DNA from: Escherichia coli
Lineage (GTDB): Bacteria > Pseudomonadota > Gammaproteobacteria > Enterobacterales > Enterobacteriaceae
Assembly: GCF_030013205.1 (NCBI RefSeq)
Contig: NZ_CP122648.1
Strand: one strand, 5' to 3'
DNA: 64,000 bases
Both the position numbers and the translations under genes were made by a program. This document shows, in pieces, positions 18,969 to 19,507 of this stretch (position 1 is the first letter of the stretch; each line of letters opens with the position of its first letter). The notes beneath the pieces are model-generated. The model did not search any database and was not told the origin of the DNA. It saw only the letters and a list, made by a program, of their open reading frames with translations.

Positions 18969-19084
18969 ATATTCATCCCTGAAATGTATTAATGAAATAA
19001 ACGATATTTTACGCGCAATAAATGTTTGGCGCATTAGTTGTTTGAGCGAAAAATATCTGGAAAGCAGATCACAGTAAATAAAAA

Positions 19085-19113
19085 AACCTGCTGGTGAGGC
19101 AGGTTCTTTTATT
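19085..19113. terminator. Bidirectional rho-independent terminator
   Basis: Hairpin acctgc-tggtgag-gcaggt flanked by an A-run upstream and T-run downstream (reads as terminator on both strands). Confidence 0.55.
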
Positions 19114-19160
19114 TACTACAGTGACGCTAACTTGCTGATTGTGCAACATTTCGTACCAAC
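19086..19160 (-). ncRNA. Candidate OrzO-like antitoxin sRNA (type I TA)
   Basis: Minus-strand promoter (-35 TTGCAA 19190-19195, 17-bp spacer, -10 TATAAT as rc of 19167-19172), about 75-nt unit ending at the terminator; contains 19-nt segment (19142-19160) that is a direct repeat of the zorO 5' UTR (19308-19326). Confidence 0.45.
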
Positions 19161-19189
19161 GAATAAATTATAACCATATCCACACTCCA

Positions 19190-19217
19190 TTGCAATTCAG
19201 TGAATGAGATTTATAAT
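19190..19217 (+). promoter_or_regulatory. Candidate sigma70 promoter for the zorO-like toxin mRNA
   Basis: -35 TTGCAA (19190-19195), 16-bp spacer, -10 TATAAT (19212-19217); implies about 160-nt 5' UTR. Confidence 0.4.
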
Positions 19218-19398
19218 CCTGCCCGTTGGGAGGTTGTGCCGGATCGGACCAATTTTAAGTCCTGGCTGCTGGACGGGTGGTGCCGCAGGCGGTGCCCTGA
19301 TCCGGAGAGCAACGTTTCGTACCAACATACGTAAACCAGTATCGACAGGCAGTGTAAGGGTAAGGTGCTGGTGTTGCGCTCCTTAATAAGGAGAGCGG

Positions 19399-19488
19399 AT
19401 GGACACGCTGACACAAAAGTTAACCGTGCTCATTGCTGTACTGGAGCTATTAGTGGCTCTGTTACGGTTGATTGATTTGTTGAAGTAA
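19399..19488 (+). CDS. zorO: 29-aa hydrophobic type I toxin (ZorO-like)
   Basis: ATG preceded by AAGGAGAG RBS; peptide MDTLTQKLTVLIAVLELLVALLRLIDLLK is a single-helix membrane peptide recalled as ZorO; followed by hairpin ggggga-aaaccgc-ttccccc plus T-run. Confidence 0.6.
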   Translation: MDTLTQKLTVLIAVLELLVALLRLIDLLK

Positions 19489-19507
19489 TGGGCAAATTGA
19501 AACGCAA

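What the first reader, a model, noticed from the sequence alone, without database searches (positions are those of the whole stretch)
19080..19500. zorO/orzO-like type I toxin-antitoxin locus between yehL and yehK
A 29-codon ORF with a strong RBS encodes a hydrophobic single-helix peptide (MDTLTQKLTVLIAVLELLVALLRLIDLLK) that I recall as matching ZorO. It has a promoter about 160 nt upstream, giving a long 5' UTR. A divergent promoter sharing the palindromic -35 TTGCAA drives an about 75-nt minus-strand unit ending at a strong terminator. That unit contains a 19-nt segment (19142-19160) directly repeated in the toxin 5' UTR (19308-19326) with one A/G difference that would be a G-U wobble in the RNA duplex. 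This is the architecture of Ldr/Rdl- and Zor/Orz-type loci. K-12 lacks zor/orz as I recall.
Basis: partly seen in the sequence, partly recalled or inferred. Interest (0 to 1): 0.7.

Follow-up and report, generated by a model that had tools for sequence, protein, structure and literature searches.

The report
Known zorO-orzO toxin-antitoxin locus
This is an intact single copy of the already well-studied E. coli zorO-orzO toxin/antisense-RNA pair, with a toxin, small RNA and pairing site identical to those of the O157:H7 reference strain, so it is real but ordinary.

Summary

- **Toxin:** window 19399-19488 (+) encodes a 29-aa peptide whose exact sequence carries the name "Small toxic protein ZorO", ZORO_ECO57.
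- **Small RNA:** window 19160-19080 (-) is an 81-nt RNA. It matches Rfam OrzO-P (RF02083) at 88.8 bits against a gathering score of 60. It is 81/81 identical to orzO of E. coli O157:H7 EDL933.
- **Promoters:** the two divergent promoters share one palindromic -35 hexamer, TTGCAA (19190-19195).
- **Published landmarks:** the inferred zorO start site (19225) gives the published 174-nt 5' UTR. The ribosome-binding site falls at +164..+169 and the OrzO target at +85..+102 (19309-19326), as published.
- **Repeat:** it is 18 nt, not 19, with one G·U pair. EDL933 has the same G·U.
- **Differences from EDL933:** 12 substitutions in 492 nt. None lies in the sRNA, and the two in the ORF are synonymous.
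- **Corrections:** the sRNA is about 81 nt, not about 75. K-12 lacks zorO but keeps an orphan orzP. [quoted passage not shown]

The locus is already known. The only practical gap is that RefSeq annotates neither gene. Outside the finding, I saw an 8.9-kb integrase island flanked by two copies of the thiM TPP riboswitch aptamer.

The parts
19080..19160 (-). orzO antitoxin sRNA gene (81 nt; +1 inferred at G19160, ends in a U-tract at 19080)
   Evidence: Rfam RF02083 OrzO-P scores 88.8 bits (gathering score 60) over 19080-19153. The sequence is 81/81 identical to orzO of EDL933. The start site is inferred from the -10 position. It agrees with the published V1 triplet at sRNA positions 9-11 (PMC3919570).
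19143..19160 (-). OrzO 5' pairing domain (GUUGGUACGAAAUGUUGC); the V1 specificity triplet GAA lies at 19150-19152
   Evidence: An 18-nt repeat is complementary in the two RNAs. V1 = GAA defines OrzO and ACG defines OrzP (PMC3919570).
19080..19110 (-). orzO intrinsic terminator (12-bp stem, 7-nt loop, U7); the hairpin is near-symmetrical and so could act in both directions
   Evidence: inverted repeat I1; fold, z = -2.4.
19167..19172 (-). orzO promoter -10 (TATAAT)
19190..19195 (.). Palindromic -35 hexamer TTGCAA shared by the divergent orzO and zorO promoters
   Evidence: inverted repeat I3.
19212..19217 (+). zorO promoter -10 (TATAAT)
19225..19398 (+). zorO 5' UTR, 174 nt; the processed (delta-28) form would begin at 19253
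   Evidence: Length computed. It equals the published 174 nt (PMC5397157). The delta-28 position is inferred by gap-free alignment to EDL933.
19297..19326 (+). EAP (exposed after processing) region, +73..+102, the putative ribosome standby site; contains the conserved GGAGAG at 19304-19309
   Evidence: Coordinates mapped from PMC5397157. The GGAG(TG/AG) motif is from PMC11264685. In the predicted fold the mRNA's own 5' end (+1..+22) pairs with this region.
19309..19326 (+). OrzO target site in the zorO mRNA (+85..+102), GCAACGUUUCGUACCAAC
   Evidence: duplex -28.1 kcal/mol, one G·U. The target is identical in EDL933.
19379..19393 (+). RBS hairpin: anti-SD CUCCUU (19379-19384) paired with SD AAGGAG (19388-19393, +164..+169)
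   Evidence: mean unpaired probability of the SD is 0.07. The published RBS position is +164..+169 (PMC5397157).
19399..19488 (+). zorO ORF, 29 aa plus stop; hydrophobic single-helix membrane toxin
   Evidence: The exact sequence is named 'Small toxic protein ZorO', ZORO_ECO57. There are two synonymous differences from EDL933.
19510..19538 (+). Hairpin after zorO (putative zorO terminator); it lies inside the last codons of the convergent yehK-like ORF
   Evidence: fold. Overlap with ORF 19508-19861 (-) is shown.

Best explanation
[quoted passage not shown] It sits between yehL and a yehK-like gene in a strain of the porcine ETEC lineage.

Two back-to-back sigma-70 promoters share one -35 hexamer. 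One makes the 81-nt OrzO sRNA. The other makes the zorO mRNA, which has a 174-nt leader.

The full-length mRNA is poorly translated for two reasons. Its Shine-Dalgarno sequence is locked in a local hairpin. Its own 5' end pairs with an upstream region (EAP, +73..+102) that would otherwise serve as a ribosome standby site. Removing the first 28 nt frees that region.

OrzO pairs through its first 18 nt with +85..+102. This occludes the standby site and creates an RNase III substrate, so the toxin message is silenced and destroyed.

If OrzO falls, the 29-aa ZorO peptide is made. It inserts into the inner membrane, and growth stops.

Shown here: sequence identity of all parts with the experimentally studied EDL933 locus, the complementarity, the co-variation between cognate pairs, and the predicted folds. 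Inferred from published work on the identical sequences: toxicity, RNase III dependence, processing and standby function.
For: **Identity with the studied locus**
- The peptide is the exact sequence of ZORO_ECO57.
- Rfam OrzO-P scores 88.8 bits against a gathering score of 60.
- The yehL-yehK intergenic region of locus L004 is 100% identical to EDL933 and Sakai.
- The window aligns to the zorO-orzO unit of L004 without gaps, with 12 mismatches in 492 nt. None is in the sRNA, one is in the promoter spacer, one is in the UTR (+46), and two are synonymous changes in the ORF.

**Published landmarks**

**Co-variation**
- Fifteen complete zor-orz units from the window and nine other E. coli genomes fall into three cognate sRNA/target types, plus one variant seed.
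- The target sits at +84/+85 in every unit.
- Cognate duplexes are -25.7 to -28.1 kcal/mol. Between the three types, non-cognate duplexes are -12.5 to -16.9 kcal/mol.

**Predicted folds**
- The SD is paired (unpaired probability 0.07).
- The mRNA 5' end pairs with the EAP in the full-length form but not in the delta-28 form.

**Published experiments on the identical EDL933 sequences**
- ZorO overproduction is toxic. OrzO rescues, needs RNase III and does not need Hfq, and its first 18 nt suffice (PMC3919570).
- OrzO also blocks translation at the EAP (PMC5397157).
- ZorO localises to the inner membrane (PMC6669753, PMC9860968).
Against: There is no expression or toxicity data for this strain.

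The + strand hairpin after zorO has only a short U-run, so 3' end formation is inferred.

One UTR substitution (19270, +46, U instead of C) lies in the +35..+50 region reported to be needed for optimal translation. In this single-copy locus the downstream junction also differs from EDL933, because the hairpin is fused to the yehK-like ORF. Neither is known to matter.

The physiological role of chromosomal zor-orz is unresolved in the literature.
Confidence: 0.95

Rival explanations
1. The locus is a decaying, non-functional relic of zor-orz. It is recognisable by sequence but no longer expressed or toxic.
For: About a third of E. coli genomes carry only a partial, orz-only locus (5206 genomes match, of which 3393 cover at least 80% of the query; PMC11264685), so decay does happen at this site. 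The neighbouring gene yehM carries a premature stop in this lineage.
Against: Both promoters are 10/12 matches to consensus. The sRNA is 81/81 identical to a functional one. The ORF is intact with only synonymous changes. The target site and RBS hairpin are intact.
Confidence: 0.03
2. The main selected function is not toxin control. The orz promoter or sRNA would serve something else: trans targets elsewhere, or transcription and attenuation of the co-directional yehL operon immediately downstream. The toxin would be an accessory.
For: orz is retained without zor in K-12 and about 30% of genomes, and it is expressed there (PMC11264685). orzO ends 112 nt upstream of the yehL start codon on the same strand. 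The simple scan finds no consensus-like promoter between them.
Against: The orzO terminator is strong (12-bp stem, U7). The variable part of the sRNA seed co-varies with the zor target, which shows selection on the toxin interaction. The promoter scan is crude, and weak or non-sigma-70 promoters would be missed. No other target is known.
Confidence: 0.07
3. Chance coincidence of a short ORF, a repeat and promoter-like hexamers.
For: Short ORFs and promoter-like sites are common. The scan's shuffle expectation is 1.7 promoter-like sites per 800 nt.
Against: The 18-mer repeat had 0 matches in 100 shuffles. The Rfam E-value is 5e-13 for the whole window. The peptide is identical to a named protein. 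A complete unit is present in more than 3300 complete E. coli genomes.
Confidence: 0

Closest known systems
zorO-orzO of E. coli O157:H7 EDL933 (z3289; Fozo et al. 2010; Wen et al. 2014, PMC3919570; Wen et al. 2017, PMC5397157)
   Same: The peptide, the 81-nt sRNA, the 18-nt target with its G·U, the V1 triplet GAA, the 174-nt UTR, the RBS hairpin, the shared -35 hexamer and the chromosomal site (yehL-yehK) are all identical.
   Different: There are 12 substitutions in 492 nt, all outside the sRNA and none changing the peptide. The window has a single copy, whereas EDL933 has a zorP-orzP plus zorO-orzO tandem. The window lacks about 90 bp that EDL933 has between the zorO hairpin and yehK, so the hairpin is fused to a yehK-like ORF that is 12 codons longer.
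zorP-orzP (EDL933 paralogue) and the orphan OrzPmg of K-12 MG1655 (PMC11264685)
   Same: Same family, same architecture and same Rfam model (K-12 scores 99.9 bits). The sRNA 3' half and terminator are the same.
   Different: The OrzP seed is GUUGGAACACGAUGUUGC with V1 ACG. The EDL933 ZorP peptide has T3S. OrzP does not repress zorO (PMC3919570); the computed non-cognate duplex is -15.7 kcal/mol against -28.1. K-12 has no toxin ORF and no target site.
[quoted passage not shown]
   Same: The sRNA is divergent and non-overlapping. It pairs far upstream of the RBS in a long structured 5' UTR. 5' processing activates translation, and standby-site logic applies (PMC5397157).
   Different: The toxin and sRNA sequences are unrelated. 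No Rfam match to IstR, OhsC or AgrB was found in the region. No SOS control is known for zorO.
Ldr/Rdl
   Same: A small hydrophobic toxin silenced by a small antisense RNA acting on the 5' part of the mRNA.
   Different: From my own knowledge, Rdl is encoded in cis and overlaps the ldr leader, and Ldr is 35 aa. Here the two transcription units start 64 bp apart, do not overlap, and share only 18 nt of complementarity.

Membership tests
zor-orz type I toxin-antitoxin family | 29-aa hydrophobic Zor toxin | tested here: met
   The exact sequence look-up returns 'Small toxic protein ZorO', ZORO_ECO57. The peptide is identical to that of the EDL933-identical locus L004.
zor-orz type I toxin-antitoxin family | Divergently encoded Orz sRNA (Rfam RF02083 OrzO-P) at or above the gathering score | tested here: met
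   88.8 bits against a gathering score of 60, full model 1-76, at 19080-19153 (-).
zor-orz type I toxin-antitoxin family | The first 18 nt of the sRNA are complementary to the toxin 5' UTR, far upstream of the RBS (3' end of the EAP, about +85..+102) | tested here: met
   17 Watson-Crick pairs plus one G·U, at -28.1 kcal/mol, with the target at +85..+102. This exceeds the published minimum of 15 continuous pairs, or 17 with one mismatch (PMC3919570).
zor-orz type I toxin-antitoxin family | O-type identity: V1 triplet GAA at sRNA positions 9-11 (OrzP has ACG) | tested here: met
   The sRNA starts GUUGGUAC-GAA-AUGUUGC. The criterion is from PMC3919570.
zor-orz type I toxin-antitoxin family | 174-nt structured 5' UTR with a sequestered RBS, and an EAP region masked by the mRNA 5' end | tested here: met
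   The length is 174 nt. The predicted SD unpaired probability is 0.07, and +1..+22 pairs with the EAP in the full-length fold but not in the delta-28 fold. This is prediction only; structure probing was done on the EDL933 RNA (PMC5397157).
zor-orz type I toxin-antitoxin family | Chromosomal site between yehL and yehK | tested here: met
   RefSeq annotation of matching genomes, including an EDL933-identical locus, places it there.
zor-orz type I toxin-antitoxin family | Toxicity on overproduction, and rescue by the cognate sRNA in an RNase III-dependent manner | not testable with these tools
   Shown for the identical peptide, sRNA and target of EDL933 (PMC3919570). Not measured for this strain.
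zor-orz type I toxin-antitoxin family | Co-variation of the sRNA seed and its mRNA target between paralogues | tested here: met
   Three cognate types occur in 15 units. Cognate duplexes are -25.7 to -28.1 kcal/mol and non-cognate duplexes are -12.5 to -16.9 kcal/mol.
Ldr/Rdl type I family | A cis-encoded antisense RNA overlapping the toxin leader, and a 35-aa Ldr peptide | tested here: not met
   The inferred start sites at 19160 (-) and 19225 (+) face away from each other, so the transcripts do not overlap. The peptide is 29 aa and is ZorO. The family definition is from my own knowledge.

The most novel reading that the evidence does not exclude
Here, as in nearly all E. coli (including strains that have lost the toxin), the orz promoter and sRNA sit directly upstream of yehL on the same strand. 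They may have a second role: feeding or attenuating transcription of the yehL operon, or regulating other targets. In this lineage the zorO 3' hairpin is also embedded in the end of the convergent yehK-like ORF, which could couple the two genes by antisense overlap.
Probability: 0.08. Interest if true: 0.4.

Novelty: already known. Interest (0 to 1): 0.08.

Why it matters
The finding matters little as a discovery. zorO-orzO has been characterised since 2010-2017, and its distribution, copy number and orphan antitoxins were surveyed in 2024.

It has two practical values. [quoted passage not shown] Second, it shows an annotation gap. In all 12 RefSeq E. coli genomes whose yehL-yehK region I inspected, neither the 29-codon toxin gene nor the sRNA was annotated. 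None of the 90 listed BLAST rows showed an annotated feature under the match either.

Tried and rejected
- **NCBIfam:** the scan of the peptide gave no family even at E ≤ 10. This says nothing against ZorO, because the exact-sequence look-up settled its identity.
- **Whole-molecule RNAduplex:** the sRNA against the mRNA gave a spurious 61 kcal/mol structure that involved the terminator. I replaced it with seed-only duplex calculations.
- **Source strain:** I first assumed the window came from strain CFSAN018748, which is 100% identical over the locus. That strain lacks the 8.9-kb island present in the window. The porcine ETEC1748 lineage matches both regions exactly.
- **Recombinant single copy:** I considered that the single copy arose by recombination between two tandem units, because its 3' flank resembles the yehK-proximal unit of strain OkiPb01676. 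This is plausible, since the units share the repeated terminator segment, but I did not resolve it.
- **Second copy:** I looked for another zor or orz copy in the window and found none.
- **tRNA genes:** there are none in the window.

Full report
**What is in the sequence**

The 473-bp interval between the yehL start region and a yehK-like ORF holds a 29-codon ORF at 19399-19488 (+). It encodes MDTLTQKLTVLIAVLELLVALLRLIDLLK and is preceded by AAGGAG at 19388-19393.

A consensus scan of 18900-19700 finds exactly two sigma-70-like promoters, each matching 10 of 12 positions. They point in opposite directions and use the same palindromic -35 hexamer, TTGCAA at 19190-19195. The -10 TATAAT for the + strand is at 19212-19217, and for the - strand at 19172-19167.

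A start 7 nt downstream of each -10 puts the two start sites at G19225 (+) and G19160 (-). The minus-strand unit runs 81 nt to a 12-bp stem and U7 terminator ending at 19080.

Allowing up to 2 mismatches, the 18-mer occurs only at these two places in the 64-kb window, and none of 100 shuffles gave any match. Because the copies are direct repeats on opposite transcription units, the two RNAs are complementary. The mismatch is a U·G wobble, and the duplex is -28.1 kcal/mol against -28.5 for a perfect one.

**Identity**

- An exact-sequence look-up of the peptide returns the name 'Small toxic protein ZorO', RepID ZORO_ECO57.
- The minus-strand unit matches Rfam RF02083 (OrzO-P RNA antitoxin family) at 88.8 bits against a gathering score of 60, over the full model.
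- The Rfam model starts 7 nt inside the sRNA. This is why the hit begins at 19153 rather than 19160.
- NCBIfam has no match to the peptide.

**Comparison with the reference locus**

The yehL-yehK intergenic region of locus L004 is 100% identical to E. coli O157:H7 EDL933 (NZ_CP008957.1) and Sakai. It carries the published arrangement. The yehL-proximal unit has ZorP (T3S) and an sRNA with V1 = ACG. The yehK-proximal unit has ZorO and an sRNA with V1 = GAA (criteria from PMC3919570 and PMC11264685).

The window aligns to the zorO-orzO unit without gaps, with 12 mismatches in 492 nt.

| Region | Differences from EDL933 |
|---|---|
| 81-nt sRNA | none |
| zorO promoter spacer | one (19204) |
| 5' UTR | one (19270, +46) |
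| ORF | two, both synonymous |
| Flanks on either side | the remaining eight |

The target site, including the G that makes the G·U wobble, is the same in EDL933. The wobble is therefore not a peculiarity of this strain.

The published landmarks map exactly (PMC3919570, PMC5397157):
- The 5' UTR is 174 nt.
- The RBS at +164..+169 corresponds to 19388-19393.
- The EAP region at +73..+102 corresponds to 19297-19326, and the OrzO site occupies its 3' end (+85..+102).
- The V1 triplet lies at sRNA positions 9-11.
- The conserved GGAG(TG/AG) motif reported in 2024 is present as GGAGAG at 19304-19309 (PMC11264685).

**Mechanism**

Published experiments used sequences identical to those here.
- ZorO overproduction stops growth (PMC3919570).
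- OrzO rescues through its first 18 nt. It needs RNase III and does not need Hfq (PMC3919570).
- OrzP does not cross-repress zorO (PMC3919570).
- The full-length leader hinders translation, and the delta-28 form exposes the EAP region, a probable ribosome standby site (PMC5397157).
- OrzO also blocks translation at the EAP (PMC5397157).
- ZorO acts at the inner membrane (PMC6669753, PMC9860968).

My own folds agree with this picture.
- The SD is locked in a CUCCUU/AAGGAG hairpin, with an unpaired probability of 0.07.
- In the full-length RNA, +1..+22 pairs with the EAP region.
- In the delta-28 RNA that pairing is gone, and the target site is somewhat more open: mean unpaired probability 0.46 against 0.36.

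The mRNA begins GUUGG, like OrzO. In the predicted fold it pairs with the same CCAAC that OrzO binds.

As an independent test of the interaction, I parsed 15 complete units from the window and nine other E. coli genomes.
- They fall into three cognate seed/target types, plus one variant seed.
- The target always sits at +84/+85.
- Cognate duplexes are -25.7 to -28.1 kcal/mol.
- Non-cognate duplexes between the three types are -12.5 to -16.9 kcal/mol.

The variable centre of the seed therefore co-varies with its target.

**Distribution and context**

- Of 5426 complete E. coli genomes, 5206 match some part of the locus and 3393 cover at least 80% of it.
- Many of the rest, including K-12, match only the first 221-224 nt. 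That stretch covers orz, the promoter module and the start of the leader.
- K-12 scores 99.9 bits on the Rfam model, and its sRNA is identical to OrzP of EDL933 over the 81 nt compared. This is the published orphan OrzPmg (PMC11264685).
- The same paper reports 25% single-copy, 42% two-copy, about 30% orz-only and 3% empty genomes.
- The window has one copy only.
- The window is identical over 2301 bp to porcine ETEC strain ETEC1748.
- RefSeq annotates neither zorO nor orzO in any of the genomes I inspected.

**Verdict**

The locus is an ordinary member of a well-characterised system.

- The repeat is 18 nt, not 19.
- The leader is 174 nt, not about 160.
- The sRNA is about 81 nt, not about 75.
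- K-12 keeps an orphan orzP.

Novelty: already known. Interest is low.

**Side observations**

1. In this lineage the hairpin after zorO is fused to the 3' end of the convergent yehK-like ORF. That ORF is 117 aa and ends ...QLIEYYFIKGGSGFPP, whereas K-12 and EDL933 have 105 aa ending ...QEIE.
2. orzO lies 112 nt upstream of yehL on the same strand, and the simple scan finds no consensus promoter in between.
3. An 8.9-kb island lies between rcnR and thiM, bounded by an approximately 82-nt exact repeat.
   - It encodes a tyrosine integrase, a GmrSD endonuclease and a small recombinase.
   - The repeat is the core of the thiM TPP riboswitch aptamer, so two TPP riboswitch hits occur 8.9 kb apart.
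   - The island is present in only 37 of 5426 genomes.

Noticed in passing
window 38359-47345: An 8.9-kb island lies between rcnR and thiM. It is absent from strain CFSAN018748 and present in only 37 of 5426 complete E. coli genomes, mostly porcine ETEC and O139:H1. It encodes a tyrosine integrase (38491-39828), a GmrSD restriction endonuclease (39913-41499), HTH proteins and a small recombinase. It is flanked by an approximately 82-nt exact direct repeat that is the thiM TPP riboswitch aptamer core, with Rfam RF00059 hits at 38359-38454 and 47249-47345. The attachment site therefore appears to be a riboswitch aptamer. The left copy, together with the sequence that normally lies upstream of thiM, now precedes the integrase. 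The right copy keeps the thiM expression platform.
   Followed up: partly
window 19508-19861 (-): The yehK-like ORF is 117 aa and ends ...QLIEYYFIKGGSGFPP. It reads through the zorO 3' hairpin and stops 20 nt from the zorO stop codon. K-12, EDL933 and O55:H7 YehK are 105 aa and end ...QEIE, and EDL933 has about 90 bp more between the hairpin and yehK. RefSeq calls this variant 'hypothetical protein'.
   Followed up: partly
L003 2046-2128 (K-12 derivative JW5503): K-12 keeps an orphan orzP gene (Rfam 99.9 bits), the divergent promoter module and the first bases of the zor leader. It has no toxin ORF and no target site. This was already published as OrzPmg (PMC11264685).
   Followed up: yes
window 18968-19080 (-): orzO is co-directional with yehL and ends 112 nt upstream of its start codon. 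The simple sigma-70 scan finds no consensus-like promoter between them. The orzO terminator hairpin is nearly symmetrical and was also reported on the + strand.
   Followed up: no
L002 3654-4062; L009 and L010 second units; L011: A third seed/target type (sRNA GUUGAGAUGCCAUGUUGC, target GCAACAUGGCGACUCAAC) occurs as the yehK-proximal unit in several strains. A variant seed, GUUGGGGCGCCAUGUUGC, occurs with the same target in L011. One unit encodes a ZorO A13T variant. These may correspond to the published zorQ/orzQ class, but I did not check that.
   Followed up: partly
window 15590-17869 (-), yehM: The yehM reading frame stops at 15761, about 57 codons before the end expected from strain CFSAN018748. 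RefSeq marks yehM as a pseudogene with an internal stop in ETEC1748, which is identical to the window over the 2301 bp compared at the zor locus.
   Followed up: partly
window 19225-19246 and 19297-19326 (+): The zorO mRNA begins GUUGG, like OrzO. In the predicted full-length fold its first 22 nt pair with the EAP region, including the CCAAC that OrzO binds. The leader's own 5' end thus acts like a built-in copy of the antitoxin seed. This is consistent with the published processing model.
   Followed up: partly
all RefSeq loci inspected (L001-L005, L008-L014): In the 12 RefSeq E. coli genomes whose locus I inspected, neither zorO nor orzO is annotated. Every BLAST row listed for the locus shows 'none' under the match.
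   Followed up: yes
window 63178-63263 (-): CyaR/RyeE sRNA, Rfam 100.7 bits. This is an ordinary E. coli feature.
   Followed up: no
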